A DNA stretch of 64,000 nt from positions 56,791-120,790 of the IMG/VR virus record IMGVR_UViG_3300021400_000048. One strand, written 5' to 3'. Below the pieces are notes generated by a model, which was not told the origin of the DNA, did no database searches, and was given only the letters and a program-made list of their open reading frames with translations. Numbering within the stretch: position 1 is the stretch's first letter; the number at the start of each line of letters is the position of its first letter. Below are positions 14,955-48,781 of the stretch, piece by piece. Source of the stretch: a virus (taxonomy: Duplodnaviria > Heunggongvirae > Uroviricota > Caudoviricetes). A program made the position numbers and the translations under genes.

Positions 14955-17666
14955 TTAATTATTGTTATTATCTTGGTTTTCAAATGTTACATCGGAAATA
15001 ACACTAACAGGTGTTGAATCTACACTAGTTATAACAGCTGCTCCATCTTGAGTGCTTCCAACTTGCCCTGTTGCAACTGTTGTTGCCTGAGCATTAGCAA
15101 TTGGAACATCTACATCTTCAAAAGTATATTGTGTAATTGTATTTTCTGTTTGTTTTGCTGGTATAACAGTTGTAGTTGCATTAGCAATTGGTGTTAGTCT
15201 TAAGCTACATTTATTAGCATTATAAGATGCTTTATAAGCAGCATCATTATTACTAAAGCCTGTCATTACAGTAACTGGAATATCTACATCGGCATTACCA
15301 CATGATTTATTTACAGAATTACTTACATGTGATGCAGTTTCTGTACTATCACCGACACCCTTAACGGTAGTAGTAGTTAAATAATGTGTTTCTGGTGATA
15401 CTGCTTGAACAACACTTTCTTGTTCAGTATTTAATTCTGGTTTATTATTTAAATCATTATAATCGCCACTAAAAGAAGATGTACCAGCGCCAATATTAGT
15501 TCTGGCATTCGCTTTTTGAGTATCATTTAGATTTTGAGCATTTGTATCATATCTAATATATCTATCATTAGTTAAATCACTGTCACTTTCTGGAATTGGT
15601 GTACTATTAAAAGCATTATCACCTAAACCATGAACAGATACTTCTGTGCCATCAACTCTAATAGTTCCATCAGTATTTCCTTCAATAACTGATTGGACTG
15701 CACTATCTGCTAGTTCTAAGCTATCTTGCACGCTATCAGCTAAATCTGTTTTTGGAATTCCTTCAGCAGGCTTATTATACTTATTATTTCAGCCGGCTAA
15801 AGTATTTTCAGTAAGGCTATCTAATAGAGTTTTATTTTCATGGGTATGTCTTGCAGTTGTATTATTGTTTATATCTATTACTAAATTTGTATTAATTCCG
15901 CTATTAATTGCTGCTCATTGATCAGCAGTAAATGAACTGTTATTTAAAGTATATTCATAAGCTCAGCTATTATTACTATATTTATATCTATCAAATTTAG
16001 TTGTCTCTGTTGCTACAACAGGGTCTGGAAAACTTACATATGCATAGTCATTAAGCGTTGGATTACTTACTGCTATTGCTAAAGCTGTAGCTATTTGTGC
16101 TTCTGTAGCATCGATAGTTAAACCTAAATCAGTCACTACATTAAATGTTCCTTTAAAATTAGCAGTTGCTGTAGCAATAGAACTATTAACAAAGTCTTTA
16201 TCTGCTAATTGATTACTTGATGATGCTTGTTCAGGAATTAAGCCTTCAATGGCGTCTAAGCTATCTCCTAAAGAACTTAACTCTTGTTTTGTAGCATAAT
16301 TAGCTAAGTCACTAGAAGTTACAAAATTTGAGTCATTATTTAAATCAGAAGTTTTTGTTGGAATAGTAGGTTTATTAAGTAAATCATCATAGTCACCAGA
16401 AGTGGCAACATTCGCTAAATCATTACTCTCTACATAATCAGCTAAAATATTAGTTAGTTCACTCTCCGTAATATAGTCACTTGGCACTTCTTGTAATGCA
16501 GTAGCTCCTAGAGCAGCTCCACTTCTAATTGTATCTAAGTCAGAAATAGTATTTTGTTTAGCATTAAGCCCAGTACTAACTTCTTGTTTAGTAGCAAAGC
16601 CAGTTAAATCAGGCTTATTTATTAAGTCATCATAATCACCAGTTGTTGCAACTATAGCTAAATCTGCATCCTCTACGTAATCTTCTAATTCAGTAGCTAA
16701 TTCAAGTTCTGTAACATAATCATTTAAAACTGCAGGTTGTACAGCAGTAGCACCAGCTGCTGCACCACTTCTAATAGCATCTAAATCATCAATAGTGTCT
16801 TGCTTATTATTTAGTGCTTCATCTACATACTGTTCTGTAGCATAACCATCTAAAGCATTTGATGTTATAAAATCGCTATCATTTGTTAAATCTGATGTCT
16901 TAGTAGGTATCGTTGGCTTATTATCCAAATCATTATAGTCCCCACTTGTTGCTACAGTAGCAAGGTCTTCTATTATATTTAAATAATTATCGGTAAAGTC
17001 ATTAGTACTTAAACCTTTGCCATTAACTTTATCAACTTTATCATCTAAACCAGCATCAAGAGCTTCTTGTGTAACAAAACTGCTATCATTAAATAAATCT
17101 GAAATCTTTAATTGTTCATTACCTAATTCAACATGGCCATATTTGTCATATCCAACTTTTCTTGCAATAGGTACTTGAGCAGCATTATATTTTTTGCTGT
17201 GTTTAATAGAAATATTATTATCTGTGCTATTACCTGTTACTTCAATTGGATTGTTTTCTGCAGTATCAGCAATAATATCTACAATTGCATTATCTGCAAA
17301 TTCTGTGTTACCAGACTTAACTTTTTGGTTAGCTGAAACTGCATTAGAGCTAATGATTACTTTAGGCGAATCCTCAAGCTCTTTTTCTACTTCTAAAATA
17401 ATATTTTCACCGGCAACTAGTTCAACTTCATCATTTGCACCAAAAGTTATTTCTTCTTCATCTACGAGAACTTTAATTTTTTGGTTTGCAGCAGGATCTC
17501 TTTTATCAAGTTCTTCACGCAAGCCAGTAATTGCCTCTATTGGATGTTGGTCAGGTAAATTTCTATTAGCTAATCTATTATGGTCTTTCACACCATTAAT
17601 TTCACCAACTTTACCATGAATATTAGGATCTGATGAAATTTTTCCAATAATTTTGCTACTTGGCAT
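14955..17666 (-). CDS. tail fibre protein, 903 aa, three Phage_fiber_2 repeats (SGDYNDLDNKP / TGDYDDLINKP / SGDYDDLLNKP plus a fourth GDYNDLNNKP)
   Basis: ORFs 15963..17666 and 14955..15731 are in the same frame. Hand translation of 15732-15962 has no TAA/TAG, only TGA at 15963, 15915 and 15789. AAAGGAG RBS before 17666. Confidence 0.8.
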
Positions 17667-17680
17667 ATATTAGCTCCTTT

Positions 17681-18070
17681 CTAGTCACAAATAATAAATT
17701 TTGTTTTATCTACAACAGTTTCAACTCCTGTAACTCTTTCTCCTGTAGTTTCATCTTCATGATCGAATTTAAGCTTAATTGCATAGTAATATTTTCCTGG
17801 AAGTAAATCTACAGTATCCTCAGGATTAATACACATTTCAATTATATCAGAATCTGCAACATAATCTTCTACAGTAAATTTTTTCTTAAGTATAGCATCT
17901 TCAAATTTTTGATGTGGAAGCATTAAGCCAAAATATAATATATCATTATCTTCTAATCTATAGATTTCTCCTGGATTATCAGATACATTTAAATCTAAAT
18001 TAAAAGCATATGAATCACCACGATTTATTACAATTATATTTCCTGGAAATGAAATTACTGATGATGACAT
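17681..18070 (-). CDS. hypothetical 129-aa protein, first gene of the tail-fibre operon
   Basis: ORF track; AAGGAG RBS; class A motif at 18101-18118. Confidence 0.55.
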   Translation of the reverse strand: MSSSVISFPGNIIVINRGDSYAFNLDLNVSDNPGEIYRLEDNDILYFGLMLPHQKFEDAILKKKFTVEDYVADSDIIEMCINPEDTVDLLPGKYYYAIKLKFDHEDETTGERVTGVETVVDKTKFIICD

Positions 18071-18100
18071 AATTTATTCTCCTTATTTTTTAAGTATCTA

Positions 18101-18118
18101 AATAATTTAGCAATTATA
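18101..18118 (-). promoter_or_regulatory. class A promoter motif (coding strand ATTGCTAAATTATTTAG) before the tail-fibre operon
   Basis: Variant of the TATTTGCTAAATTAA consensus, about 35 nt before the ATG at 18070, just after terminator 18131-18160. Confidence 0.5.
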
Positions 18119-18130
18119 TTCAGCATAAAA

Positions 18131-18160
18131 AAAGAAAAGCAATTAAAACTTGCTTTTCTT
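18131..18160 (-). terminator. rho-independent terminator (AAGAAAAGCAA / TTGCTTTTCTT perfect 11-bp stem)
   Basis: Directly 3' of the gene ending at 18166. Confidence 0.6.
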
Positions 18161-18165
18161 AATAA

Positions 18166-18606
18166 ATTAAGCAACTACTAAAATATAAGCTTGTTTTTTA
18201 ATTTCAACTGGTAAATTTTGATCTTTATAAATTAATTTGATAAAGTAAACTAATTTATCGTCTGACTTATTTATATATAATTTGTCTAAAAAAGTAGGAT
18301 CTAAAATAAAGCTGATTCCAACTAGCTCTTGTTGTGAATTAATAACCGGCTCAAAAGTGATACCATCTTCAGGAAATTCATTTCAAGAAATTTCATCATT
18401 ATTTCTCTCAAAAGCACTAAATTCAAAATTAAGTTCATCATTATCTGTAATACAAAAATGTACTTCTGAAAGCTTATCAAAAAAATCAACAACATTTCAA
18501 CAAAACTCAGCATTATTAGCACTTTTACTAATTGTATAAGTAGGAATATAAAATTTATTACATGGGTAAATACCTAAAGTAGTTTTAATATTAACAATAT
18601 TTGCCA
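18166..18606 (-). CDS. hypothetical 146-aa protein (2 TGA-Trp)
   Basis: Hand translation from an ATG behind a GGAAGGT RBS: MANIVNIKTTLGIYP...; ends TAA just before the terminator hairpin at 18131-18160. Confidence 0.5.
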
Positions 18607-18619
18607 TAACAATACCTTC

Positions 18620-19075
18620 CTATTTAATTTCTAATATTCCATCAGATTCTGAAAATAATATATATTCATTTCCATCAATAGTACAACTTAATTGCATTCT
18701 ATATACATCTTGTAATAAAGTATTATTTTCTGCTGGAATATAAATTTCTAATTCATTAAAGTTGTCAGAAAGTCTAAATAAAGCATTTGTTTCATTAAAA
18801 ATCAGTGGCTCATGCAAAACATTTACAATACTAAATTTAAAATCCATTAAATAACTACTGATATCAATATCACCGTCAATATCACCATCAAAATAAAAAT
18901 ATAATCTAATAGGATTACCCTTTTTTGTTGAAACACCGACAAACTCTCCTTTAATATTATAAATTATTTGCATATCAGCATTTCCTTTTATATTATTTTT
19001 GATTAAATCATCTTGTTTATCTTGACTTTTTTTATTAATATGATGCTCATAATTATAAAACATATCGCTTGCCAT
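18620..19075 (-). CDS. hypothetical 151-aa protein
   Basis: ORF track; AAGGAG RBS; class A motif 19108-19125 upstream. Confidence 0.55.
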   Translation of the reverse strand: MASDMFYNYEHHINKKSQDKQDDLIKNNIKGNADMQIIYNIKGEFVGVSTKKGNPIRLYFYFDGDIDGDIDISSYLMDFKFSIVNVLHEPLIFNETNALFRLSDNFNELEIYIPAENNTLLQDVYRMQLSCTIDGNEYILFSESDGILEIK

Positions 19076-19107
19076 AATAGAGTCTCCTTAAGAATTTTTT
19101 ATTCTCG

Positions 19108-19125
19108 TTTAATTTAGCAAATATT
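19108..19125 (-). promoter_or_regulatory. class A motif TATTTGCTAAATTAAACG
   Basis: Reads as an extended -10 (TG-C-TAAATT); about 35 nt before the ATG at 19075; follows terminator 19141-19162. Confidence 0.55.
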
Positions 19126-19140
19126 TAGTATAAAAATAAA

Positions 19141-19162
19141 AGCTATAAATTAAATTATAGCT
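19141..19162 (-). terminator. hairpin AGCTATAA..TTATAGCT followed by TTTTATTTTTAT
   Basis: 3' of the gene ending at 19181. Confidence 0.5.
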
Positions 19163-19180
19163 TTATTGTATTAAATATAA

Positions 19181-19501
19181 TTAGTTAACATTAACTTTCT
19201 TTGATCATTTACACATTTCTGAAATATAGTCAATTAATTTCTTAATAACTTTTTCATCAAACTTAATTCCAGCAGCAGTCATAGCAGTTTTAATTCCTTC
19301 AAGTGCCATATTTAATTTGTCTTCACTTGTCATTTCATGATGTGCTTTAGCAAATTCTTCAACATCTGCCATTACAGCTTTTGCAATTTCAGTAATAGCT
19401 TTCCAATTCTTGTCTTTAATTGATTTTACAATTAACATTACAAATGCAACAACTGCAGAAACTGCAGAAACTAATTCAGGTATAAATTTTACAAATTCCA
19501 T
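19181..19501 (-). CDS. small protein with an N-terminal TM helix, 106 aa (holin-like topology; function unknown)
   Basis: ORF 19205..19501 ends in TGA and extends 8 codons to a TAA at 19181; followed by a hairpin + T-run. Confidence 0.5.
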
Positions 19502-19509
19502 TCAGTCCA

Positions 19510-20055
19510 TTAATTTTCTCCTTTACTCTTATTTTTTGCTGATTTTTTTGAGACTAGATGTACATCTATTTCTTTAATTTCTTCTTTAACTGGAAGATTA
19601 TCAAATCTATTCATAATATCTTCTACAAAAGAATTACCATCCAGAGCTACATATGCTTCATATAGATCATGAATATTTTGATAGTCGTAATCATTACGAT
19701 ATCCCTTTTCTCGACATCTATAATAACAAGTTAAGATATCATTTCTCAGCGTAGCCAATGTACCTTCTGCAGTAGCTGCTAATTTTTTATCTAATCCATC
19801 TATTTTTTCAGTTAATGGCTTAATAGCTTCTTGAATAGTGTTATTTAATGTTTCTGTTAGTTTTTCATCAGCTTCTTGTTTTTTATAGTCTGCAAGCTCT
19901 TTTTCAGCGTCTTCTTTTTGTTTTCGTTCTTTATCAGCTTTATCAAAATATTTTGTCATTCAGCGCTTTAATAAAAAAGCAATGCAAGTAGTTAAAATGC
20001 AGCTCACAATAATTGGAACTGCCCAAGCTCAAAATTGCGCTCAAGTAAAAATCAT
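19510..20055 (-). CDS. membrane-anchored coiled-coil protein, 181 aa (4 TGA-Trp in the first 33 codons)
   Basis: GGGAG RBS then ATGATTTTTACTTGAGCGCAATTTTGAGCTTGG...CGCTGAATGACA, in frame with ORF 19510..19959; N-terminus MIFTWAQFWAWAVPIIVSCILTTCIAFLLKRW. Confidence 0.6.
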
Positions 20056-20114
20056 AATAAACTCCCTCTGATCTTATAAGATCATCCGATAAATAATAAA
20101 TTGCTATTTCTTAT

Positions 20115-20132
20115 CAATTAATTTAGCAAAAA
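20115..20132 (-). promoter_or_regulatory. class A motif TTTTTGCTAAATTAATTG
   Basis: About 60 nt before the ATG at 20055; AT-rich UP-like tract upstream. Confidence 0.55.
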
Positions 20133-20192
20133 TAAACTATTAATTTATTATTTTTATTTTATAATAGACTAATAAAAAATAGGTAGCTAATG

Positions 20193-20735
20193 CTATCTAT
20201 TTTTATTTATTTTTTGTTCATTAATATATTGAATTGCATATAGACCACACTGTGATGCTGCATCTTCAGCTCAGTATTGATCATAAGGTAGTGTTTTTAT
20301 TCCTTTTCTTTCTTTTATTTCTAATACTCAGTATCTTACCGCCGAATGAATTGCAATAGTAAAGAGATAAAGAGGTCCTAACCATAATTGACTAATTGTA
20401 TGTCCAAATTCATGGCTATCTAAATAGCTTTCAGAGGACTTTTGATCTCTTACATACATTAAGCCCATTTCAAAGCCGCCTCAGTATTCTGGTCCTGCTT
20501 TAATACCATAAATTCAACCATATTTTTTAAAGTGAATACTATCTTTGAAAAATAATTTTACATAAAATAATATTACAGTTATTAATAAGCCAATTACTGT
20601 TTGCAAAATTCCTCATGTACAAGCTAATAAATAATATAATCATCTATGCTTAACTAAAAATTTTGTTCAACCTGCACAAATATTAAATAAAAAGTTTCCA
20701 AGTTTTCCATGGTCATACTGTCTTTTGATTTCCAT
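20193..20735 (-). CDS. polytopic small membrane protein, 180 aa, with an HEFGH (HExxH) motif; 8 TGA-Trp
   Basis: Hand translation from an ATG behind a TAAGGAGC RBS; stop TAG at 20193-20195. Confidence 0.45.
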
Positions 20736-20748
20736 AATAAGCTCCTTA

Positions 20749-21519
20749 TTACTTTATTATTTTTTTTATTGCATCTATAATGGCATTTGAAAGATTAATA
20801 ACTGGCACAACTTTTTGTATAGACTGTGGTGGGGAATTGGTAGATTTGTCCTCAACCGAAGTGTCATGTCAAGGATATTGTTCAAGTAGACCTTGTAATG
20901 AAGTCTGTGGATTAATATTATTTTTTCATCGACTGGCCAATGTTATACTTAATAGCTTATTATTTGAATTATTTGTACCTCATATATTACAAGAAATATT
21001 ATAACTTAGTAAGCTAGTTTGGCTACTAACAGGTGATAAAGTAAGCAGATCTCAACTAATATCTGCTGATTTAATTTTATACGCGTCATTAGCTATTGTA
21101 AATTTTAAATAAATAAATTTTTTTTCTAAATACTGTGACATTAATAAAGCAGCAATTAAATTAGCTTTTATTATATTTAGAACATCTTTAATAGGTACCC
21201 CAATTTGATTGTTTGCAGACAATCAGTCTAGCAAAACGACCATGATATTAATATCAATATCTTGATAGTCTGATACGTCTAATAAATTAGGCTTATAACT
21301 TTTAATTATTTCAGCAAAAGACTTTTTAGTAGCAACTATATTATTGTTTTTATCTGATAGCCCAACTACAAATCTTTGATCATTAATTAAGTACTTAATA
21401 TCAGAATCTTTACTTCATACAGCGGTAAAAAATATGCCTATATAATTATTGTCTTTAATTTCCCTTCAAGACATATCTTTTAATTGGTCTATCGTTAAAT
21501 TTGTAAAAGTCTTAGCCAT
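20749..21519 (-). CDS. hypothetical 256-aa protein, 7 TGA-Trp
   Basis: Hand translation from an ATG behind a GGAG RBS; class A motif 21555-21571 upstream; stop TAA at 20749. Confidence 0.5.
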
Positions 21520-21720: not shown

Positions 21721-21954
21721 TTATTTTGCTCTATTTAAAATTGTAATTTCATCTACATAAAATATATTAGCACCTATATCAGTAGCAGTCAGATGACCTT
21801 CTACTAATACTATATCATCTTCAAAAATTGCAGTAAAGTTAGATAAATAGCAATGGACATCTGTGCCCTTCTTTTTCTTATTATCTTTAATATTAACCGT
21901 AAACCATTGACCATCCGCCCAAGTAACAGTACCTTTAATAATTACTTTATTCAT
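21721..21954 (-). CDS. hypothetical 77-aa protein (TGG-only)
   Basis: ORF track; real TAA stop. Confidence 0.5.
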   Translation of the reverse strand: MNKVIIKGTVTWADGQWFTVNIKDNKKKKGTDVHCYLSNFTAIFEDDIVLVEGHLTATDIGANIFYVDEITILNRAK

Positions 21955-22204
21955 CTACCACCTCATAATTTTTGCTTATAGCTACAATATTAAATAAATC
22001 AACATATTTTTCTACAGGAATACTTTTATCTACTTTAGCACTATAACATTCTGGAATTGTATTAAATACCTCATATCTATCACTACCAAGCTTTAATAAT
22101 TGTGCACAATAATCTGGAATACTGCTAAATGCCTCCCAAATACCAAGCATAACTTTTAAATCAGTTTTTGTTAAGTATACTTTTCTATCTTTTAATTTAA
22201 TCAT
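21947..22204 (-). CDS. hypothetical 85-aa protein
   Basis: ORF track; overlaps neighbours by a few nt (coupled). Confidence 0.5.
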   Translation of the reverse strand: MIKLKDRKVYLTKTDLKVMLGIWEAFSSIPDYCAQLLKLGSDRYEVFNTIPECYSAKVDKSIPVEKYVDLFNIVAISKNYEVVDE

Positions 22205-22206
22205 AG

Positions 22207-22890
22207 TTATTCCTCCGAAAATAAATTATATGGTTTTGGTTTATCATCAACTTCTTCTTTTGGAGCAATCCATTTTATAGTTGGAAAGCCGTTATAAGTT
22301 GTATCAAAAATAAACCAACAATAACAAGCAGCAGAACCAATTTTTTTCTTATTTCCATCTTTATCAAGCTTAAATGTCCCATCTTCATTTTTTTGATAAC
22401 GTTCATCATTTTTATAGCAAGCAACACGTTTCGAGTATACATATACTGTTTTAAGCTTCATCTGTCTATAAATTTTTTCAAGTCGCTCTTGTCCCTCTAA
22501 AAATTGTATCTTTAAAAACATAGCCATTTTTCTACCAGGCCTTAAAACTTTTAGAGCATGCTCTACAATTTCTGTCTGACAGGTATATGGTGGATTAGTA
22601 ATAAGATCACAATCAATATCTTTATATGTAAAGAAATCAATACCAGACTTTCCATAACCATGATCATACAAATCAGTTGAAACAACTGTTTTTCCATATT
22701 CTTCCATTTTCTTTGAAAGATTCCCAGAACCACAGCAAGGCTCTAAAATTGTATCACTAAATTCTTCTACAGCAAATAAATCATCAATACAATCAGGATC
22801 AGTAGAATAAAAATCTGTTACCTCACGCTCTTCTTCACAGTGATTTGATGCACCAAGCATGCGAAATAAATCTTTAGTTGTACGTGGCAT
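22207..22890 (-). CDS. orphan DNA N6-adenine / N4-cytosine methyltransferase (motif I EPCCGSGNL, motif IV NPPY)
   Basis: LITNPPY and ExxxGxGxL motifs in the 227-aa ORF; no adjacent restriction gene. Confidence 0.7.
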   Translation of the reverse strand: MPRTTKDLFRMLGASNHCEEEREVTDFYSTDPDCIDDLFAVEEFSDTILEPCCGSGNLSKKMEEYGKTVVSTDLYDHGYGKSGIDFFTYKDIDCDLITNPPYTCQTEIVEHALKVLRPGRKMAMFLKIQFLEGQERLEKIYRQMKLKTVYVYSKRVACYKNDERYQKNEDGTFKLDKDGNKKKIGSAACYCWFIFDTTYNGFPTIKWIAPKEEVDDKPKPYNLFSEE

Positions 22891-22892
22891 AA

Positions 22893-23315
22893 TTACTCCT
22901 TATAATTTTTCTCAAATTCTTTTTCGAGTCTTACAAAATCTTGATCTGGATAAGCATCATAATAAGCTTGTCTATTAGGATAGTATTCTACCGTCTTTTG
23001 TGTATATTTAGCTTCATTATACATTATAAAATTGTCAAACAACAAATATGGATACTTATAATCATATTCTGTTTCTGAATAATAAGTATCTACTTGCCCA
23101 TTTTTCAGTTTTTTTTCAGTTATATGCCTAAAGTAGTAGTTATCATCTCTATCTTTAAATAATTGATATATTTCTGGAACATAAGTTAATTTAACTGGCC
23201 TACCTTTTGCAATACTTTTACTAAAATATTTCCAGACAGTCATTCTAATAATTTTATCACCAACTTTTAAGCCTAGAGCTTCAATTAATAAATTATAAAC
23301 TTTTTCTGCCTTCAT
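22893..23315 (-). CDS. hypothetical 140-aa protein, first gene behind class B promoter 23331-23350
   Basis: ORF track; RBS AGAGG. Confidence 0.5.
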   Translation of the reverse strand: MKAEKVYNLLIEALGLKVGDKIIRMTVWKYFSKSIAKGRPVKLTYVPEIYQLFKDRDDNYYFRHITEKKLKNGQVDTYYSETEYDYKYPYLLFDNFIMYNEAKYTQKTVEYYPNRQAYYDAYPDQDFVRLEKEFEKNYKE

Positions 23316-24738: not shown

Positions 24739-24748
24739 ATAGCGCCTC

Positions 24749-25489: not shown

Positions 25490-25500
25490 TTATTCGTTTC

Positions 25501-40059: not shown

Positions 40060-40065
40060 AAATTA

Positions 40066-40515: not shown

Positions 40516-40531
40516 AATTATTGCCTCCTAA

Positions 40532-41956
40532 TTATTCTTCCTCGTGCCTATTAATGTGAATATTGGCAATAAAACCTTCTATACTGTTTTCAGGAAAATC
40601 TCCAAATCATTCTAATTTTATATATCCTTCATTAGTATAAGAATCACTCGTATATGATACACGAACATCTCGGTATTCATCACCTGGATTATAATCAGTA
40701 ACCGGCTCTACATCAACACTAAAACCAGTAATTTCTTCTTCAGCTGCAAACATTGCCACATTAATAGGTTGGCCTACTCGTTCAATAAGAAATGTAGGTA
40801 AATTAAATTCTAAGCTTTCTTTATCAGCAAGTGAAGCATATTTGGCTTGCATTAACATATAAAAGTCATCAGTAAGATATTCTACTGGGGCATCATTTTC
40901 TCATTGAACTGTATATTTTAAGATAGGGATCACTTTGCTAGTATGCTCTTTTGGTACATTATTATCTACATATGGAACACCTACATAGCAGCCAATTAAG
41001 CCTGAAGTAGGAGTAGGTGTAACTCCGCCACCTGGCAAAACAAAATAATCTCATATAACATTAAAAATAAATTTGTTCTCATGATCATGATCAGGTTGCA
41101 TAGCTATAATGATTGGACCATTTGCAGTATATATCTCAATATTTTGATTTAAATCTGCTTCAACTCCCACTACAGCAAGAGGTGGATTTTGTGCTTCACT
41201 ATCAGTAAAAATTACTATTGTAAGTGATGTTAATGCTCCTATCTTCTGAGCTAAATAACTATAGTCCTCAGTAGTTAAGTCTTGAAGTCAATCTAAACTA
41301 TTAGGAGTACTTTCACCATAAACTAAATTAAGATATAAATCACTCTCTATTTTGAAATTTTGAAATGTTGGATTAAATATTATTCCTTCTTCCTCTTCAT
41401 CATCAGTTGCATTTATTTGTAAATCACCAAAATCACTAGTTAAGTAAATTTCTACATTATTGTCATTTCTTTGACAATGAAAATAACTAACTTTGTCATA
41501 GAACTTGCCAGAATATTGATGTTCAAATTCAGTAACAATATAATGTCCATTATAAGGTGCAAGTATTTCGTATAATTCAGCAATTGTAGTATATTCTGGA
41601 ATATTTCTACCATTTATCTCAAAGTAGCCTGAAAATATTTCGCAATATAAAGATATATCTGTTACTAATTCACTACTTGTGCTACCACCTTCTGGAATTT
41701 TATACTTATTTCCGTCAATTTCAATTCCTGTTAAGTCTGGCTCACTGCCTTCCATTTCTGGATTAGCTATAACACTACCGCCGCCAACAGGAATATCTCC
41801 TTCGCCAACAATAGGAATACCATTAATTGTTTTAAATAGTGTTTCTGATTGCTCATTTAAAGCTTCTGCAACAGCAGTTTCATCTGTAGGTGATGGAATA
41901 CCTTTTGAAGTAACTTTAATGTCGCCAGCTTTATCTTGATAATAAAGTTTGCCCAT
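40532..41956 (-). CDS. hypothetical 474-aa protein (3 TGA-Trp)
   Basis: ORFs 41288..41956 and 40607..40858 are in the same frame. The 428-nt gap hand-translates with no TAA/TAG. AAGGAG RBS; class A motif 41991-42007. Confidence 0.6.
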
Positions 41957-41990: not shown

Positions 41991-42007
41991 CTTAATTTAG
42001 CAAATAT
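41991..42007 (-). promoter_or_regulatory. class A motif TATTTGCTAAATTAAGTAG
   Basis: About 40 nt before the ATG at 41956. Confidence 0.55.
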
Positions 42008-42033: not shown

Positions 42034-42792
42034 TTAAAGTCTCTTATGTTTTAATTTCTGTCTTTCATTAAATTTTAATATATCTTCTAGTAATTCTGCG
42101 TCTGCAAAATTAGCAATAGCTGGCACATCTTTATCCAGACAATGACTAGAAAAATACGGGTGATCTTTATAGACAAATGTATGACTTGGATTTACACGTG
42201 GATCTAAAATAAATAATTCTCTTAAGTCTTCATAATCAACACCAATATTATTTGCTATTTCATAAAATTGACAGCAAAAAGCTACTTTTGTTGCTAACCA
42301 AGAATTTTCCATATATTTTGCCAGTTCTGCTGTTTTACTATCAACTATTCTAAATGTATGCCTTGCATCATAAACATTTTGTAATAATTGTTGAACTTCT
42401 AGACAATCTTTTTTATCTCCACCTAAGATAGTAAAATCAAAATAAAAATTATTACAATGTTGTGTTCCACCGTAATATTCAGGACTAAAAACTATTTTTT
42501 TCTTTGTTATTTCTTTTAGCTTATCAATACTTCCTGGCAAGATAGTTGATTTAATGATATAAATATTTGCATCATGCTCATTTATTACCTCAATTAAATC
42601 ATCTATAGGTGCTTCAACAGTATCCATTTTTTTAGTATCTATACAGATAAAACAAAAGTCATATTTAGTCTTTTTCTTAACACTATAACTTGGTTTATAT
42701 TTATCATAAATATCTGGTTCTAATACTTTTATTTCTTCGTATAAATTATGACCAACTACACCATATCCTACAATTAAAACTTTTTTTCTCAT
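42034..42792 (-). CDS. nucleotide-sugar dehydrogenase-like protein (NAD-binding LIVGYGVVG, STILPGS, central AELAKYMENSWLATK); lacks the C-terminal UDP-binding domain
   Basis: UDP-glucose/GDP-mannose dehydrogenase family motifs in the 252-aa ORF; class B cassette 42806-42850 upstream. Confidence 0.55.
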   Translation of the reverse strand: MRKKVLIVGYGVVGHNLYEEIKVLEPDIYDKYKPSYSVKKKTKYDFCFICIDTKKMDTVEAPIDDLIEVINEHDANIYIIKSTILPGSIDKLKEITKKKIVFSPEYYGGTQHCNNFYFDFTILGGDKKDCLEVQQLLQNVYDARHTFRIVDSKTAELAKYMENSWLATKVAFCCQFYEIANNIGVDYEDLRELFILDPRVNPSHTFVYKDHPYFSSHCLDKDVPAIANFADAELLEDILKFNERQKLKHKRL

Positions 42793-42828: not shown

Positions 42829-42849
42829 ACTAATTTAATAATTAGTCTT
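42826..42849 (-). terminator. hairpin AAGACTAATT-TAAT-AATTAGTCTT
   Basis: 3' of the gene ending at 42842; fused to a class B promoter. Confidence 0.6.
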
Positions 42850-44407
42850 CATTTATAATTTTTCATAATGCATCTTCTAATTCTTTACTTCAGCCTTCTA
42901 CACTATTACAGATAAATTTTATATTAGGATTTTGTAATGCATCTGCAAATTTATTATCAAATATTTCTTTACTTCAAATACCAAGCCTAATATTATCATC
43001 TAAAATAGGTGCTTTATGCGCAAATGAATTAAAATAAACATCCTCAGGAACATAGCTTTCTTCTCGCATATTAAATTTATCTCACAAATTCTTAAGCCTC
43101 TCAAATTCAAAATAGCAAGGAAAATGCGTAGTATAATTTATATGGGTAAAATTTTCTCTGTCCATTAATTGTCTTGTTTTTCATTTATCATGTTTTCAAT
43201 ATGATGTTGGTAAATCTTTTCTACCAATAAAAGTTGGTTGATGATAATATATAGTATTTATATCTTTAAAGCTAAAAGGTTTAATAGCATAATTATCATC
43301 TACCATATAAATAAAACCATCATACTTATCTTTAAAATGATCGTAGGCTATTTCCATTTTATGCTGAATATCTAAATGTGGATTATACTGACCTAATTTT
43401 TTTTCTTTATTTTTAATATATATAAAATCTACCCAAGGAAATTCTTCAATTAATGACTGTTCAAATTCGCCAATAACAGCAAAATGATACTTAAAAGTAC
43501 AAAATTTTTTCCAACAATTTAAAGCTAATTTTATTTCATTACCTTGTGCATGACTTTGGCTAAAAGGTAATACAACTAAAATTTCTTTATTTAATTCATC
43601 TAACAATTGCTTTTTTAACTGTAGCATATCTGAATTTATCGTAAAAAAGGCATCAAATGTTCTAACTATACCCATAAAATAACCTCTTAAAGTTTTTTTT
43701 CAGATATATTCTTCTCAAGATTTAGTTATATAATGTCTTAAATAAATATTATTGTAGACAAGCTCATTTGGGTCTTTGTTAAATTTTGTATTGCAAAAAT
43801 TACAAATATCATTTGGAATATGATTAGTATTTCAAAATTCTTTTTTATACTTTTTTAAATTATAGCAAGGTTTTTTATTACAAGTTCTATCTTTTAAACG
43901 AACAAAACCAGATATTTTTTTAGTAAAAGTTTCTATAACACCTTTATTTGAATAATCTGGCCTATCTATTAACCCATTGGCACCATAGCATTCTCATGAT
44001 AATATAAAAGCATCATAATCTACAAATAAATTAAATATATCTGATAATGATTTATCTTTTTCTAATGTAATAAATTCATCATTATCGATAACAAAAACTC
44101 AATCATAGCTTTCAGAATATTTAGCTTTTAAAAAATTCATACCACTTCTTAAATATATCTGTTGTGCACTACTCTTCTTTGTTTTTTTATATTCAATTGC
44201 CTTATTAATGCCTACTTCTGTAAGTATAGCTGTAATACTTTGCAGTGTTACTCTATCGCCATATTTATCTGTAATAGCTTTATGTGATAAACTATCTATA
44301 TCTTCAAATATAAATATATGATTAACACCTATATCTAAATGATATTTTATTCACTCATCTAAATATAGGTGTTCATTTTTAATAACTGTTAATATACAAG
44401 AAGTCAT
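42842..44407 (-). CDS. two-domain glycosyltransferase, 521 aa: GT92-like N-terminus (NEHLYLDEWIKYHLDIGVNHIFIFED) + GT-A-like C-terminus (FIYMVDDNY); about 10 TGA-Trp
   Basis: Continuous in-frame hand translation from the ATG at 44405-44407 (TAATG overlap with the upstream stop) through ORF 43196..43675 to a TAA at 42842; no stop between the two halves. Confidence 0.55.
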
Positions 44408-45636
44408 TATTCGTAATAGTCTTCTCCTGGCTCTTCTTCGCTATTAGCATCTCCATTGCCTGAGCCTGATCCAGATCCACTGCCTGAACCTCCGCCGCCA
44501 CCATTATAGGCTTCTGCTGCTGTTGTACTTCAAGTTTCATCATTACATATAATGGCAAGATTCATATTTTCGTTTGCACAATAAAAAGCAAATAATACAT
44601 TATCTTTATATGTTGTATCATCCTTAATTCCATCTATAGTGCCATCATAATAAATAGTAGCACTACTAAGATAATCAGATGCTTCCTCTGTGTTATTAAA
44701 AGCATCAGCTGCTACACTAGTTACAGTCCTTGGTATAGTGATGGAAGTAAGTGCAGTACCCTTAAAAGCAGAGTTGCCAATTGTAGTCAAAGCAGCAGGT
44801 AAACTTATATATTGTAATTCTTCACAGCCTTCAAAAGCATAGCTACCAATTACTTCAACATCTTCACGAATATTAATTTGTGAAAGGCTTGTACACCCTT
44901 GAAAACAACTATCTGAAATGCCAGCTTCACTTGATCAAATAACACTAGTTAAATTATCACATTCACAAAAAGCACCATTACCAACAACAATTACATCCCC
45001 AGGAATTGTAATACTTGATATTCCGCATCTTCTAAAAGCATAAATTCCAATCTCTTCCAGATACTCAGGTAATGTTAGATTAGTTAAACTAGAAGTATCT
45101 TCGAAAGCAGATATTCCAATTTTTTTAAGTTCTGGTGGAAAAATTATACCTACAAGATCTCCATCATCTTTAAAAATATTATCAAATAACATTGTTATGT
45201 CATGCTCATTCCCACTACTATCTACAAATATTGCTGGTATATTAGCTATATGAGTCGAATCTGTAGATATTCCCTGTGGTGCAGCTACTATTTGATTGAT
45301 AATAGTGCCAAAAGGAACTGTTGTTCTGCCTTTAGTCTGCGCTTCTGCTAAGCATTTTAAGATATTTCTAAAATAATCTTTTGTATCAACACTTGTCTCA
45401 GAGCTGCTGGGGCAGTTATAAATATGTGCACCAACCGCATATATTCCAGCTGTTGGTACATTGAAGTAGTATGATATAAATTTACTACCCTTTAATTCAT
45501 CTAAGATGTTTTCTCCTAAAATATCACCCGAAACATTCTTTGACCCTCTGATTATATCAGCAGCTTTACCTAACACTTCTCTTAAATCATTAATATCATA
45601 ATTAGGCATATTAGAAACGCTCCTGTAATAATGCAT
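44407..45636 (-). CDS. BspA-type leucine-rich-repeat protein with a C-terminal Gly/Ser linker and acidic tail, 409 aa (2 TGA-Trp)
   Basis: ORFs 44935..45636 and 44530..44790 in the same frame joined through TGA; repeats IGISAFEDTSSLTNLTLP / IGIYAFRRCGISSITIP / VIGSYAFEGCEELQYISLP; tail GGGGGSGSGSGSGSGNGD. Confidence 0.6.
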
Positions 45637-46033
45637 CTAAATCAGCAGAGTGATTATCAAATGTTCCAGTTACTCCTAAAATAGTTACACCAGACCTAAT
45701 GTTTCCAACTACTAAATCTGCATCTACAACTTGTGCAGTAGCATAAGCAGCTACATCTACTTGTTCTGTAGTTGTAATATCAATATTTCCTATTGGTGTT
45801 GGTCCACCGCCTTGAACATCTACATCTGCAGAAGCATATTCTGCAACATCATAAGTGCCATTTTCAGTAATACTAATAGTTCCTGTAGGTACTGGTGCTG
45901 GTTCTTCCTCACCATCTAAAACTGCTCTATCAATAAGAGCAACATCATCATTAGCAGGAATTCCTGAATAGCTACCAGTAAGAGTTCCTTGCTTTTCATA
46001 AACTAATTTAAATTTTTTGTTTTCTTCTGCCAT
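45611..46033 (-). CDS. 140-aa protein sharing its N-terminal about 45 aa with 46056..46556
   Basis: MAEENKKFKLVYEKQGTLTGSYSGIPANDD... versus MAETKQYKLVYEKEGELKGSYSGIPANDD... Confidence 0.55.
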   Translation of the reverse strand: MAEENKKFKLVYEKQGTLTGSYSGIPANDDVALIDRAVLDGEEEPAPVPTGTISITENGTYDVAEYASADVDVQGGGPTPIGNIDITTTEQVDVAAYATAQVVDADLVVGNIRSGVTILGVTGTFDNHSADLDALLQERF

Positions 46034-46055
46034 TTTATATCTCCTTAATTAACAA

Positions 46056-46556
46056 TTACTTTGTTGTTAAATATGCGTCTAATGGTGTTCCAACTTCAGC
46101 ATCTATCTCACAAATGATTGAATCAAAAGTGTTATGTTCTTCAGCACTTGGGTCATCTGCATAAATATCAACTAGATTATTTAAATTTTTATAATAATCT
46201 TCTTCAACTGTATCATATGCTACTATTATATATTCTTTATCATTATATATAAATCTAAATGGACAATGATAGTCTGCATTTACACTTAGTTCTATAATAT
46301 CATTAATAGTGAGATAAACACTTTCATCGAAATGATAATGATTATCTTCAGCATTAAAAACTGTTTCACCTAAATCGAATGGTACTAATTTGTGGTATAT
46401 TTCAGTTGGATCTGTCGGTGTAACAGGATCTTCTTTTCCTTCTAATACAGCTCTTTTAATAACATCAGTATCATCATTTGCTGGAATGCCACTATAACTT
46501 CCTTTTAATTCACCTTCTTTTTCATAAACTAATTTGTATTGTTTTGTTTCTGCCAT
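46056..46556 (-). CDS. 166-aa paralog, same N-terminal module with a different C-terminus
   Basis: ORF track; shared N-terminus with the gene above. Confidence 0.55.
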   Translation of the reverse strand: MAETKQYKLVYEKEGELKGSYSGIPANDDTDVIKRAVLEGKEDPVTPTDPTEIYHKLVPFDLGETVFNAEDNHYHFDESVYLTINDIIELSVNADYHCPFRFIYNDKEYIIVAYDTVEEDYYKNLNNLVDIYADDPSAEEHNTFDSIICEIDAEVGTPLDAYLTTK

Positions 46557-46577
46557 ATATAAGCTCCTTTTATTATA

Positions 46578-47648
46578 TTAATCTATATAGTCATTAATAA
46601 GGGCATCTAATCCATTATTAATTAAACTATCATCTTTTTGTTTTTTATAAAAATTAAAATCATTATTAAATAAATTAAGAATTGCTTGTGCGAGAGGCAC
46701 ACTACTTATTGTATAATCATCTGCCATTTGATTCATTGATTTAGTTTCTTGTGTTGCTTGTCTCTTTGCATCTGCAATAATAGTCTTGATATTATTAGGT
46801 ACATCAGCTACCTTAGTATCAAATGTAACATCAGCTGCTAAATTTCATAAGTCTTTTCTTGTATCATCAGAATTTGCTGTATGTCTATAAATAAAGTCTT
46901 CACCCTCTTTTGCATTTGGATATTTTCTTTCAAATGAGTCTTTAATAGCTTCTAAATTATCAATTACAGCATTTTCTTTTTCAATATCTTCTGCATCATC
47001 AATAGTATAAAATACAATATCACTTTCGTCATCAATAAATGGAATTTTAAATTTAATTCCAGTAACATGATCTTTAAATCAAGCTTTTGCAGCATCTTTG
47101 TCTTCTATTGACATATTATTTAATGCTCTTTTTAAACCACTTCTTCTATTAGTTGAATCTTTAAGTCTTTGCGCATAATATTTACGAACTAAAGCTTCTG
47201 CAAAGGCTGCTTGGTGAACTTTTGTCAATAACTGTCTTTTTGTCTTATAATCTAAACTACCAGTATTAGTATATTTTTTTGCATTAGCTAATGCATTAGC
47301 ATAAATTTCATCTGCTGTTGATTCACCATCACCAAAATAAGCAAGATTATAATAATAAATATCACTATCCATTACATCCTTTAATTCATTTTCCTTACGA
47401 TCAAGCATATCAGTATAAATTGCTTTAATTATTTTTACAGCATAAGAAAATGCCTCTTTAAGTACTTCTTGATCTTTTAAAAACTCAGAAATACTAATTG
47501 TTTTTAAATAATTTTTTGTTCTTACTGACGGTGCCACTTTTCCATCATCTGGTCCTACATATCAATTTGGATCTTTTGTTAAAAAGTCTTTATAATTTAG
47601 AGTACCAGTTAATTTATTTCCCTCAGTTAAGTTTATATTTTCTTGCAT
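46578..47648 (-). CDS. hypothetical 356-aa protein (4 TGA-Trp)
   Basis: ORF 47079..47537 extended upstream to the ATG at 47646-47648 (GGAGATTTAT RBS) and downstream through TGA to a TAA at 46578; class A variant 47677-47692. Confidence 0.5.
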
Positions 47649-47676
47649 ATAAATCTCCTATTAAATTAACTCTATA

Positions 47677-47692
47677 TAATTTAGCTAAAATA
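47677..47692 (-). promoter_or_regulatory. class A variant (TTTTAGCTAAATTATATAG)
   Basis: About 35 nt before the ATG at 47648; directly after palindromic terminator 47690-47722. Confidence 0.45.
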
Positions 47693-47722
47693 AAAGCTAG
47701 CTTTTTAGTTAAGCTAGCTTTT
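47690..47722 (-). terminator. palindromic hairpin AAAGCTAGCTT...AAGCTAGCTTT
   Basis: Between the genes ending at 47726 and starting at 47648. Confidence 0.55.
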
Positions 47723-47725
47723 ATA

Positions 47726-47896
47726 ATTTTAAAAATTAACAAATAATTTTTTAAATGTTTCGTATGTTGCTTCATCTAAGTCTCTAAGAACCATTTGAAC
47801 ACCATGCTCATTGTAGATTTCAACAGACTTCATTGTAACATTTACTCTAATATGATCCTTAAAAGCTTCTACTAATAATCCTAAATCATCTAACAT
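47726..47896 (-). CDS. small 56-aa protein
   Basis: ATG behind GAAAGGAAAT; hand translation MLDDLGLLVEAFKDHIRVN... Confidence 0.35.
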
Positions 47897-47923
47897 AAAT
47901 TTAAATTTCCTTTCTAAATATTT

Positions 47924-48781
47924 TTATACATATAAATCTTCTTCTCGACCAGCTATTAATGTGCAATTAGTGTAGTCAATAGAATTTAATATATTATCTG
48001 AATAACCACATTTTTTAAAATGCTTGTTGTAATGTTTATCAAACTTTTTTCTTATAAGAATATCAAAGTTATTATTATAAATTCCTTTAATAAATTTAAC
48101 AAGGTCTTTATAGCTAAATGTATATCTATACTCTTTAACTTCACGATCCCAGCTATCTTTACCATAAGAATAAGTAAATGCCATATTTAAAACTTTAATT
48201 GGATAAGGTACTCTTCTTTCACTTAGCTTTTTAGTGTCATTAAATAACTTTTGAAAATCCTTATCAGTGACATTTAATATTTCTTCCATAGCGATATTTT
48301 GTTCCTCTAATGAAGTAAATGGTAAACAAATTCTTTTATCATCATGCCATCTTTGATAATAAGGCTCTCTAATAATAACAATACAGTCATCAGTTACTAT
48401 CTTACATAAGTTCTTTTTTAAGTAGTTAAATTCTTTTTTATTTAATTCATGAAGCACAGCAGATAAAATAATACAATCATACTTAGGATATTTAGTTAGT
48501 GAATACTTAAAAACGTCAACTTGATTCTTAACAAAAGTTACTAAGTCCATTGGAACATAAATAAGTTTTTCTGTAGATTTAATATCTTCAGTTTTAAAGT
48601 TATTATCAACAGCAACACAAGTTATTCCTGCTTCAGATATTAACTTACTAATAATACCTGTGCCAGCTCCAAGGTCTAATACCATTTTTCTATTATATTT
48701 AATAACTAAATCTGCTACTTCTTTTTTATCTGGTGAAGCATCCATTTGCTTACCAAATTCTAATTCTTCTTTTCTATTCAT
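47924..48781 (-). CDS. class I SAM-dependent methyltransferase (VLDLGAGTG), substrate unknown
   Basis: Motif I in the 285-aa ORF; no NPPY or PCQ DNA-methyltransferase motif. Confidence 0.6.
   Translation of the reverse strand: MNRKEELEFGKQMDASPDKKEVADLVIKYNRKMVLDLGAGTGIISKLISEAGITCVAVDNNFKTEDIKSTEKLIYVPMDLVTFVKNQVDVFKYSLTKYPKYDCIILSAVLHELNKKEFNYLKKNLCKIVTDDCIVIIREPYYQRWHDDKRICLPFTSLEEQNIAMEEILNVTDKDFQKLFNDTKKLSERRVPYPIKVLNMAFTYSYGKDSWDREVKEYRYTFSYKDLVKFIKGIYNNNFDILIRKKFDKHYNKHFKKCGYSDNILNSIDYTNCTLIAGREEDLYV

What the first reader, a model, noticed from the sequence alone, without database searches (positions are those of the whole stretch)
14955..48000. Trp codon choice is bimodal by gene block, and each block type has its own promoter class
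Re-joined genes fall into two sets.

(i) TGA-Trp genes: the giant ORF, the tail fibre, the 19510-21519 membrane genes, 23413-26262, the intron endonuclease, 30689-31363, and 39409-47648. Hand counts there show TGA in excess of TGG (for example about 10 TGA to 2 TGG in 42842..44407, and 8 TGA to 0 TGG in 23413..24738).

(ii) Genes with zero TGA but many TGG. These are nrdD, nrdG, the Pnkp-like gene (8 TGG), the DNA ligase, the SPFH gene, the 652-aa gene, the NPPY methyltransferase, the 387-aa gene (9 TGG), and essentially all of 47726-62207. By rough count that is about 45 TGG to 1 TGA over about 4,000 codons.

Set (ii) blocks start behind the class B cassette (hairpin-TTTTTTATTGTATAATATA). That holds for all 11 copies. 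Set (i) blocks start behind the class A motif (TATTTGCTAAATTAA). That holds for 10 of 11 copies. The exception is the variant copy before nrdD.

This is the signature expected for stop-codon-recoded phages. Early genes stay compatible with the standard code, and late, structural and lysis genes need UGA suppression. Here the pattern is visible together with its two promoter classes. A second reading is a Mollicutes host (table 4, with a lipoprotein present). In that case the TGA-free early set still needs an explanation.
Basis: partly seen in the sequence, partly recalled or inferred. Interest (0 to 1): 0.9.

Follow-up and report, generated by a model that had tools for sequence, protein, structure and literature searches.

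The report
TGA-recoded jumbo phage, promoter-partitioned code
This is part of a large rumen phage that reads the stop codon TGA as tryptophan only in genes behind its own late promoter and keeps the genes behind host-type promoters free of TGA; this kind of phage is already known, here seen unusually clearly.

Summary
All genes lie on the minus strand. I assigned each gene to the nearest upstream promoter motif. Genes behind TTGCTAAATTA (class A) hold 155 TGA and 38 TGG. Genes behind TTGTATAATA (class B) hold 2 TGA and 83 TGG (Fisher p = 4e-38). Every other NNA/NNG codon pair is used alike in both sets.

TGA means Trp. Ten of 12 TGA positions in one glycosyltransferase align with Trp in 28 homologues, and none aligns with Gly.

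A second TGA-recoded relative (IMG/VR, 237 kb) shows the same split (p = 9e-11). Both motifs are conserved across about 25 relatives, most of which use the standard code. In one relative a class A variant (one mismatch from the core) precedes the T4-type capsid and prohead protease genes, so class A is a late promoter.

The Mollicutes reading is not supported.

The phenomenon is already published, including recoded modules scattered through ~200-kb TGA-recoded phages (Borges et al.). New here are the promoter-level partition, the single-strand interleaving at the scale of single transcription units, and the T4-like affiliation.

No suppressor tRNA lies in the 74 kb I could read. The host was not identified.

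The parts
47729..63806 (-). Early region: about 35 small genes in class B or sigma-70-type transcription units. TGA-free apart from the two cases listed separately.
   Evidence: 2 TGA against 53 TGG. Pfam/PHROGs find a radical SAM enzyme, a methyltransferase and DUF5662; the rest are ORFans.
63413..63422 (-). Class B promoter core TTGTATAATA. Further exact copies at 60942, 56551, 50971, 42809, 39374, 37094, 34917, 27433 and 23335. Variant GCGGTATAAT at 62241-62250.
   Evidence: 10 exact copies, all on the minus strand; 1.1 expected on both strands together. Most sit directly after a terminator hairpin and T-run.
41993..42003 (-). Class A (late) promoter core TTGCTAAATTA. Further exact copies at 31411, 29170, 26295, 21556, 20119, 19110 and 18103. 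Variants at 47677 (TAGC..), 30662 (GTGC.., before nrdD) and 21703 (CAGC..).
   Evidence: 8 exact and 3 variant copies on the minus strand, all intergenic; 0.44 expected on both strands together. Each lies 20-107 nt upstream of a start codon.
42842..47648 (-). Late unit 1: a 356-aa gene, two MAE.. paralogues, a BspA-type LRR protein and a glycosyltransferase. 17 TGA, 2 TGG.
   Evidence: The glycosyltransferase's TGA positions align with Trp.
42034..42792 (-). UDP-glucose dehydrogenase-like gene, TGA-free, with its own class B promoter inside the late block.
   Evidence: Relative L166 has the same gene and the same promoter arrangement.
39409..41956 (-). Late unit 2: three genes, one a multi-pass membrane protein. 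10 TGA, 1 TGG.
31449..39181 (-). Three class B units: the 675-aa family marker gene, a protease-like 140-aa gene, an ATP-dependent DNA ligase, a 134-aa gene, a Pnkp-like kinase/phosphatase/RNA ligase, and an SPFH gene. 0 TGA, 18 TGG from the ATG starts I called (21 TGG if the Pnkp-like ORF is counted stop to stop).
30689..31363 (-). Single late gene (224 aa; 6 TGA, 0 TGG) sandwiched between the conserved early genes SPFH and nrdD. Its class A promoter sits in the loop of a hairpin.
   Evidence: L163 has the same arrangement. This protein is about 25-30% identical between the two phages, while its neighbours are 91-92% identical.
27466..30554 (-). nrdD, TGA-free, split by a roughly 900-nt intron (about 28414-29312). 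The intron carries a GIY-YIG homing endonuclease (28544-29149; 3 TGA, 0 TGG) with its own class A promoter.
   Evidence: The uninterrupted L163 nrdD aligns across the junction at 91% identity.
26332..27415 (-). Class B unit: a formate/nitrite-transporter-like gene and nrdG. 0 TGA, 6 TGG.
23413..26262 (-). Late unit: three ORFan genes. 17 TGA, 1 TGG.
21721..23315 (-). Class B unit: four genes including a DNA methyltransferase. 0 TGA, 6 TGG.
18167..21519 (-). Three late units of small, mostly membrane proteins, including a weak holin match (19181-19510). 21 TGA, 3 TGG. Highest TGA density in the window; the first TGA lies at codon 3-37.
2..18070 (-). Last late unit: a 129-aa gene, a 903-aa fibre-like protein, three small genes and a giant repetitive ORF (more than 4,564 aa, running off the window; 74 TGA, 28 TGG).
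   Evidence: Homologues of the 129-aa gene in L012, L013, L014 and L016 lie downstream of class A motifs, directly so in L013.
54688..55161 (-). DUF5662 gene in a class B unit with one true in-frame TGA (codon 61). This is the only real exception in the early set.

Best explanation
**What it is.** The window is 64 kb of a jumbo phage of at least about 200 kb from rumen metagenomes. The phage belongs to a T4-like family.

**How it most likely works.** Its genes form short transcription units, each bounded by a terminator and a promoter.
- Units behind host-type sigma-70 promoters hold nucleotide-metabolism, repair and small early genes. There are two such types: class B (TTGTATAATA) and a fuller TTTACA...TGATATAAT type. 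These units contain no sense TGA and do not use TGA as a stop. They therefore read the same under the standard code and under code 4.
- Units behind the phage-specific promoter TATTTGCTAAATTA (class A) hold fibre, lysis-like, surface and ORFan genes. They encode about 80-90% of their Trp as TGA. That is the share AT mutation pressure gives every other A/G-ending codon pair.

Early in infection the host reads UGA as stop, so only the code-neutral units yield full proteins. Later a phage-made UGA-to-Trp decoding system, most likely a tRNA(UCA) encoded outside the window, makes the late units translatable. The giant ORF has 74 in-frame UGAs, so late read-through must be close to complete: 0.95^74 is about 2%.

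**Shown:**
- TGA means Trp.
- The TGA/TGG split follows promoter class.
- The same split occurs in a second recoded relative.
- The motifs are conserved across the family.
- Class A precedes bona fide late genes: an exact copy before the neck gene and one-mismatch variants before the capsid/protease operon.

**Inferred:**
- The timing of the two classes.
- The factor that recognises class A.
- The suppressor.
- That the host uses the standard code.
For: **The codon split is specific to Trp.**
- By promoter-defined unit, class A holds 155 TGA and 38 TGG and class B holds 2 and 83, p = 4e-38.
- Eleven other NNA/NNG codon pairs are equal in the two sets, at 0.76-0.97 A-ending.

**TGA means Trp.**
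- Ten of 12 TGA positions in the glycosyltransferase align with majority Trp in 28 homologues, whose background Trp frequency is 2.6%.
- Internal repeats of the giant ORF place TGA and TGG at the same repeat position.

**Class B genes also avoid TGA as a stop.** None of 47 ends in TGA. Standard-code relatives end about 11% of their genes in TGA.

**The pattern replicates.**
- In L163 (IMG/VR 3300028797_000094, 237 kb), class A holds 16 TGA and 6 TGG and class B holds 0 and 44, p = 9e-11.
- L163 also has the same SPFH, late gene, nrdD order.

**The motifs belong to the family.**
- Both motifs are strand-specific and intergenic in relatives that share 44-59% identity in a marker protein.
- In L166 an exact class A copy precedes the gp13 neck gene, and one-mismatch variants precede the prohead protease and gp23 capsid genes.

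**Units are insulated.** Terminator hairpins sit at most block boundaries.

**Published precedent.** The model, including recoded modules scattered through ~200-kb TGA-recoded phages, is in 10.1101/2021.08.26.457843.
Against: **No decoding machinery found.** There is no tRNA(UCA), release factor or TrpRS in the window, in the 9.8 kb upstream (L001) or in L163. The only tRNA is an odd tRNA-Thr(UGU).

**The host is not identified.** The standard-code host is inferred from the pattern itself.

**Timing is inferred.** The order of classes A and B comes from motif type and gene content. There are no expression data.

**Exceptions.**
- nrdD lies behind a class A variant and is TGA-free. I found no convincing early promoter for it.
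- A TCGCTAAATTA variant in L001 also precedes TGA-free genes.
- One class B gene has a real in-frame TGA.

**Not every late gene is recoded.** In L166 the capsid gene has 0 TGA and 4 TGG, so 'late' permits TGA but does not require it.
Confidence: 0.85

Rival explanations
1. The host itself uses code 4 (a Mycoplasma-like Mollicute). The phage simply shares its code, and the TGA-free genes have some other cause.
For: - The genome is very AT-rich (29.5% GC).
- TGA means Trp.
- The closest glycosyltransferase hits in the genome collection sit in bins labelled 'uncultured Tenericutes' and 'uncultured Firmicutes'.
Against: - In a code-4 host nothing should keep 8,157 codons of class B genes at 2 TGA and 83 TGG while class A genes sit at 80-89% TGA under identical codon bias.
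- The same split recurs in L163.
- The 'Tenericutes' contig itself uses TGG only. Its neighbouring genes are ORFans, so it is probably a mis-binned standard-code phage.
- Most relatives use the standard code, have TGA stops and carry tRNA-Trp(CCA).
Confidence: 0.05
2. The TGA-free blocks are recent imports from standard-code relatives: mosaic modules that brought their own sigma-70 promoters. On this view the promoter/code link reflects ancestry, not timing.
For: - SPFH and nrdD are 91-92% identical between the window and L163, while the 675-aa marker is 50% identical and the ligase 61%. This points to recent exchange of that segment.
- Each block has its own promoter and terminator, as morons do.
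Against: - Apart from Trp, codon usage is the same in both sets.
- More than 26 kb of contiguous early region is TGA-free.
- The exchange partner L163 is itself recoded and shows the same partition.
- Class B genes also avoid TGA as a stop (0 of 47), unlike standard-code relatives. That speaks for selection within a recoded genome.
Confidence: 0.07
3. TGA encodes glycine (code 25, an Absconditabacteria or Gracilibacteria host), or is read through without a fixed meaning.
For: Code 25 phages exist in gut samples (10.1101/2021.08.26.457843).
Against: - None of the 12 TGA positions aligns with Gly; 10 align with Trp.
- TGA and TGG interchange at the same positions in the giant ORF's repeats.
- The paper reports that code 25 phages have in-frame TGA in about 90% of their genes. 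Here the figure is about 40%.
Confidence: 0.01

Closest known systems
TGA-recoded (code 4) gut and rumen phages of Borges et al. (Jade and Agate clades), Nat Microbiol 2022; preprint 10.1101/2021.08.26.457843
   Same: - TGA is read as Trp.
- Recoding is concentrated in structural and lysis genes.
- Replication-type genes are standard-compatible.
- Recoded modules are scattered through genomes of about 200 kb.
- Hosts are predicted to be Firmicutes.
- Close standard-code relatives exist, and TGA stops are depleted.
   Different: - That paper never mentions promoters (0 occurrences). Here each module is tied to one of two conserved promoter classes at single-gene resolution.
- Clade membership was not tested, because no terminase lies in the window.
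- No suppressor tRNA, RF1 or TrpRS was seen in the part I could read.
Dual-coded crAss-like phages (Ivanova 2014; Yutin 2021, PMC7886860; Mgcod, 10.1101/2022.06.29.495998)
   Same: A standard-compatible ('dual-coded') early block and a recoded late block. The proposed switch is soft and leaves early genes readable.
   Different: - In those phages there are two large blocks, and the code switch coincides with a strand switch. Here all genes share one strand and the code alternates about ten times in 34 kb.
- Those phages infect Bacteroidota. Here strong GGAG ribosome-binding sites and TATAAT promoters point to a Bacillota-type host.
- With Mgcod's default settings (5-kb windows, three per block), blocks this small would probably be merged.
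Phage T4 temporal promoter cascade, and T4 intron endonucleases with late promoters (from my own knowledge)
   Same: - T4-type genes occur here and in relatives: gp23, gp21, gp13, Rnl1, Pnkp, nrdD/nrdG, and a split nrdD.
- The late promoter is a single AT-rich -10-like element with no -35. It shares TAAAT with T4's TATAAATA.
- The homing endonuclease inside the nrdD intron has its own late promoter, as I-TevI and I-TevII do in T4.
   Different: - T4 uses the standard code throughout.
- The motif is TTGCTAAATTA, not TATAAATA.
- No gp55 or gp33 homologue was looked for successfully.
Phages of code-4 Mollicutes
   Same: TGA is read as Trp in an AT-rich genome.
   Different: Those phages should use TGA in all gene classes. 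Here 47 genes in class B units hold 83 TGG and 2 TGA.

Membership tests
Stop-codon-recoded phage (TGA to Trp) infecting a standard-code host | Many in-frame TGA codons; long ORFs are restored under code 4 | tested here: met
   ORF coverage rises from 0.75 under table 11 to 0.95 under table 4. The giant ORF has 74 in-frame TGA.
Stop-codon-recoded phage (TGA to Trp) infecting a standard-code host | The recoded codon aligns with Trp in homologues | tested here: met
   10 of 12 positions align with majority Trp and none with Gly. Internal repeats agree.
Stop-codon-recoded phage (TGA to Trp) infecting a standard-code host | Recoding confined to late, structural and lysis genes; early and replication-type genes are standard-compatible | tested here: met
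   Class A units hold 155 TGA and 38 TGG; class B units hold 2 and 83. The functional labels are partial, because most late genes are ORFans.
Stop-codon-recoded phage (TGA to Trp) infecting a standard-code host | Phage-encoded suppressor tRNA(UCA) or other code-change machinery | tested here: inconclusive
   None in the window, L001 or L163. At least 125 kb of the genome could not be read.
Stop-codon-recoded phage (TGA to Trp) infecting a standard-code host | The host uses the standard code | not testable with these tools
   The evidence is indirect only: TGA-free early genes, standard-code relatives, and Bacillota-type ribosome-binding sites and promoters.
Two-block dual-coded crAss-like phage | One code switch that coincides with a switch of coding strand | tested here: not met
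   All genes are on one strand, and the code alternates about ten times.
T4-like phage | gp23-type capsid protein, gp21 prohead protease and gp13 neck protein | tested here: inconclusive
   These are present in relative L166, which shares a syntenic late block with the window. In the window itself there is only a protease-like fragment.
T4-like phage | Late promoter TATAAATA read by a gp55-type sigma factor | tested here: not met
   The motif is TTGCTAAATTA and shares only TAAAT. No gp55 appeared in the Pfam/PHROGs scans of the window. It may work in the same way, but that was not shown.
Phage of a code-4 host (Mollicutes) | TGA-Trp used in all gene classes | tested here: not met
   2 TGA against 83 TGG in class B genes.

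The most novel reading that the evidence does not exclude
Promoter class and genetic code may form a two-key lock that makes late cassettes portable. On this reading, fast-evolving, TGA-rich late genes with their own class A promoter can sit between highly conserved, code-neutral early genes. The early genes can be exchanged freely between recoded and standard-code relatives.

What fits:
- The late gene between SPFH and nrdD is about 25-30% identical between the window and L163, while SPFH and nrdD are 91-92% identical.
- A homing endonuclease inside an early gene's intron is both late-promoted and recoded.

A further open point: decoding may not rely on a canonical tRNA(UCA). None was found, and some relatives carry non-canonical tRNAs whose anticodon loops contain UCA.
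Probability: 0.2. Interest if true: 0.65.

Novelty: new member of a known kind. Interest (0 to 1): 0.4.

Why it matters
The published model says that recoded stop codons delay late and lysis proteins. It rests on gene function and position, not on transcription signals.

This genome gives a sequence-level test of that model. About 20 transcription units in the window carry one of two conserved promoter types, and code use follows the promoter almost perfectly. The same holds in a second phage.

It also provides a defined late-promoter motif and a set of standard-code and recoded relatives. That makes the model directly testable by RNA-seq or proteomics of rumen samples, and it would improve gene calling for phages whose code changes every few kilobases.

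It does not change the concept.

Tried and rejected
- **Nucleotide search of phage records.** Megablast of 9 kb against GenBank phage records found nothing.
- **IMG/VR searches with two late proteins.** No relatives found.
- **PHROGs and Pfam on late genes.** Almost nothing was recognised; the giant ORF has no Pfam domain.
- **Rfam on two regions.** No family matched the 62.1-63.6 kb non-coding region or the nrdD intron, and no group I model was hit.
- **ARAGORN with relaxed settings and introns allowed.** It found only tRNA-Thr(UGU) and one poor false-looking hit.
- **The tRNA-Thr as a UGA decoder.** Rejected, because its anticodon loop is UGUGUAA.
- **Exact-motif scan of IMG/VR for the class A 16-mer.** It did reveal the recoded relatives L057 and L041.
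- **Walking along the source contig.** I ran no further search on a blind walk.
- **The code as the only barrier for the late gene between SPFH and nrdD.** I considered that early transcripts read through it. A conserved hairpin with a U-run encloses its promoter, so early transcripts probably terminate there. I dropped this as the main reading.
- **Host hint from the glycosyltransferase.** The 'Tenericutes' and 'Firmicutes' bins are probably mis-binned phage contigs.
- **Generic sigma-70 scan.** The number of hits was no greater than in shuffled sequence (145 against 131), so it could not be used to find nrdD's promoter.

Full report
**1. What is in the window**

The window has 29.5% GC. Under table 11, ORFs of at least 80 aa cover 75% of it; under table 4 they cover 95%. 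All credible genes lie on the minus strand and have GGAG-type ribosome-binding sites. One ORF runs from 13696 off the left end. It exceeds 4,564 aa and has 74 in-frame TGA. ARAGORN and Rfam find a single tRNA, Thr(UGU).

**2. TGA means Trp**

I replaced TGA with X in the glycosyltransferase gene (42842-44407, 12 TGA) and collected homologues. In an alignment with 28 of them, 10 of the 12 X positions have Trp as the majority residue. Five are invariant Trp. The other two have Phe and Glu, and none has Gly. Background Trp in these homologues is 2.6%.

Within the giant ORF, repeated motifs such as ..ITWTA.., YTITWK.. and ..AWDDL.. carry TGG in some copies and TGA in others at the same position. 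This excludes code 25 and unspecific read-through.

**3. The two motifs are real**

- TTGCTAAATTA occurs 9 times exactly. Eight copies are on the minus strand and all eight are intergenic; the ninth (27190) is on the plus strand. 0.44 copies are expected on both strands together.
- TTGTATAATA occurs 10 times, all on the minus strand and all upstream of genes; 1.1 are expected on both strands together. A GCGGTATAAT variant lies at 62241-62250.
- Most copies of both motifs follow a terminator-like hairpin and a T-run.

**4. The codon split follows the promoter**

To avoid circularity I classed genes by the nearest upstream motif, not by their TGA content.

| Set | TGA | TGG | Note |
|---|---|---|---|
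| Class A units | 155 | 38 | 27 genes |
| Class A without the giant ORF | 81 | 10 | |
| Class B units | 2 | 83 | 47 genes, 8,157 codons |

Fisher p = 4e-38.

Eleven other A/G-ending codon pairs are equally biased in both sets, at 0.76-0.97 A-ending. Trp is 0.80 TGA in class A and 0.02 in class B. The difference is therefore specific to TGA and is not a general codon-usage or foreign-DNA signal.

Of the two class B TGAs, one is the codon just before a TAG stop (58545-58880) and is probably itself a stop. The other (54688-55161, codon 61) is a true sense codon, because a homologue aligns continuously across it.

No class B gene ends in TGA (0 of 47). Standard-code relatives end about 11% of their genes in TGA. 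The early set is code-neutral.

**5. Exceptions**

nrdD lies behind the variant GTGCTAAATTA and a conserved leader hairpin, and it has no TGA. I found no convincing early promoter for it.

nrdD is split by an intron of about 900 nt. An uninterrupted homologue aligns across the junction at 91% identity. The intron's GIY-YIG endonuclease has an exact class A motif and 3 TGA.

**6. Source and family**

The window is 100% identical to two scaffolds of ENA ERZ1756080 (90.6 and 109.4 kb). It also matches contigs of GCA_001684375.1 and SRR873599. From the scaffold coordinates the genome is at least about 200 kb.

The 9.8 kb upstream of the window is also TGA-free. It uses a fuller sigma-70-type promoter: TTTAC[A/T], about 14 nt, then TGATATAAT.

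The 675-aa protein (37154-39181) finds 25 IMG/VR relatives at 44-59% identity, on contigs of up to 237 kb. Both motifs are strand-specific and intergenic in these relatives. Most relatives look standard-code. They have large tRNA arrays including Trp(CCA), and they use TGA as a stop.

**7. Replication in other recoded relatives**

*L163* (IMG/VR 3300028797_000094, 237 kb, 30% GC):
- Class A units hold 16 TGA and 6 TGG; class B units hold 0 and 44; p = 9e-11.
- The local order is the same: SPFH, class A promoter, a TGA-rich gene, then TGA-free nrdD.
- SPFH and nrdD are 91-92% identical to the window's copies. The late gene between them is only about 25-30% identical.

*L166* (an ENA scaffold):
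- It shares the window's late block: the MAE.. protein, the LRR protein, the glycosyltransferase, and the dehydrogenase with its class B promoter.
- It carries a Peptidase_S77 prohead protease, a Gp23 capsid protein and gp13.
- Its neck gene lies behind an exact class A motif, and its protease/capsid operon behind one-mismatch variants.
- This is the best evidence that class A is a late promoter and that the family is T4-like.
- Its capsid gene has 0 TGA and 4 TGG, while its glycosyltransferase has 14 and 1. Late status permits TGA but does not force it.

**8. Host**

The host is not identified. Strong GGAG ribosome-binding sites and TATAAT promoters suggest a Bacillota-type host, and nrdD/nrdG suggest an anaerobe.

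The closest glycosyltransferase hits in the genome collection lie in bins labelled 'uncultured Tenericutes' and 'uncultured Firmicutes'. These contigs use TGG only, and the neighbouring genes are ORFans, so they are probably mis-binned phage.

**9. Mechanism**

The best reading is the published one. Code-neutral genes behind host-type promoters are expressed first. A phage-made UGA-to-Trp decoding system then allows translation of the genes transcribed from class A promoters.

With 74 UGAs in one ORF, read-through must be nearly complete, since 0.95^74 is about 2% (my arithmetic). The decoder itself was not found in the 74 kb of this phage that I could read, nor in L163. The timing is inferred from the sequence, not measured.

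**10. Comparison with the literature**

- Borges et al. (10.1101/2021.08.26.457843) describe TGA-recoded phages of about 200 kb with Firmicutes hosts. In those phages, recoding is concentrated in structural and lysis genes, recoded modules are 'spread across the genome', and close standard-code relatives exist. The paper does not mention promoters.
- Mgcod (10.1101/2022.06.29.495998) describes two blocks whose boundary coincides with a strand switch, and a 'dual-coded' early block.

The core of the finding is therefore known. What this window adds:
- the promoter-level partition;
- interleaving on a single strand at the scale of single genes;
- conservation of the late promoter in standard-code relatives;
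- a late-promoted, recoded intron endonuclease;
- the T4-like affiliation.

**Verdict**

This is a new member of a known kind, of moderate interest.

Noticed in passing
window 62208-63524 (-): About 1.3 kb with no convincing ORF and higher GC than the rest of the window. It holds an odd tRNA-Thr(UGU) (63108-63184) with an 8-bp acceptor stem and G33, sitting behind a class B promoter. About 600 nt of moderately structured RNA follows it (z = -2.7). No Rfam family matches at E <= 1.
   Followed up: partly
window 39182-39408 (-); L163 9669-10036: The motif GAGCCTRTACTTATTTCT occurs twice in the long leader of the 675-aa gene. Its core TACTTATTTC occurs 22 times, always on the coding strand, in eight relatives' loci, most of which carry tRNA arrays. 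Its function is unknown.
   Followed up: no
L012 16229-16317; L160 17498-17573: Relatives that appear to use the standard code carry non-canonical tRNAs whose anticodon loops contain UCA (an 8-nt loop 'tcac'; a 6-nt loop CUCAAC). These could be UGA or frameshift suppressors that precede recoding.
   Followed up: no
window 31364-31448 (-); L163 16442-16504: A hairpin followed by a U-run encloses the class A promoter between SPFH and the next late gene. The stems differ between the two phages by compensatory changes (z = -2.4 and -5.7). It looks like a terminator with a late promoter in its loop.
   Followed up: partly
window 30555-30688 (-); L163 17162-17271: The nrdD leader is conserved. It has a 13-bp hairpin (30646-30614) with a T-rich tail and then a second small hairpin near the ribosome-binding site. 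It may be an attenuator or a regulator-binding site.
   Followed up: no
window 27466-32546 compared with L163 15344-19455: SPFH and nrdD are 91-92% identical between the two phages, while the 675-aa marker is 50% identical and the ligase 61%. This suggests recent exchange of that segment.
   Followed up: partly
window 2-13696 (-): The giant ORF (more than 4,564 aa) is very rich in Thr, Ser and Tyr, is built of repeats, and has no Pfam or PHROGs match. It is probably a fibre or adhesin. The lone tRNA-Thr(UGU) matches its dominant ACA codon.
   Followed up: partly
window 36648-37070 (-): A 140-aa TGA-free gene behind a class B promoter matches only the N-terminal part of the T4-type prohead protease (PHROG 207, E = 1e-10; Pfam Peptidase_S77 below its cut-off).
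   Followed up: no
L162 13183-13574: One relative carries a tmRNA gene inside its tRNA array.
   Followed up: no
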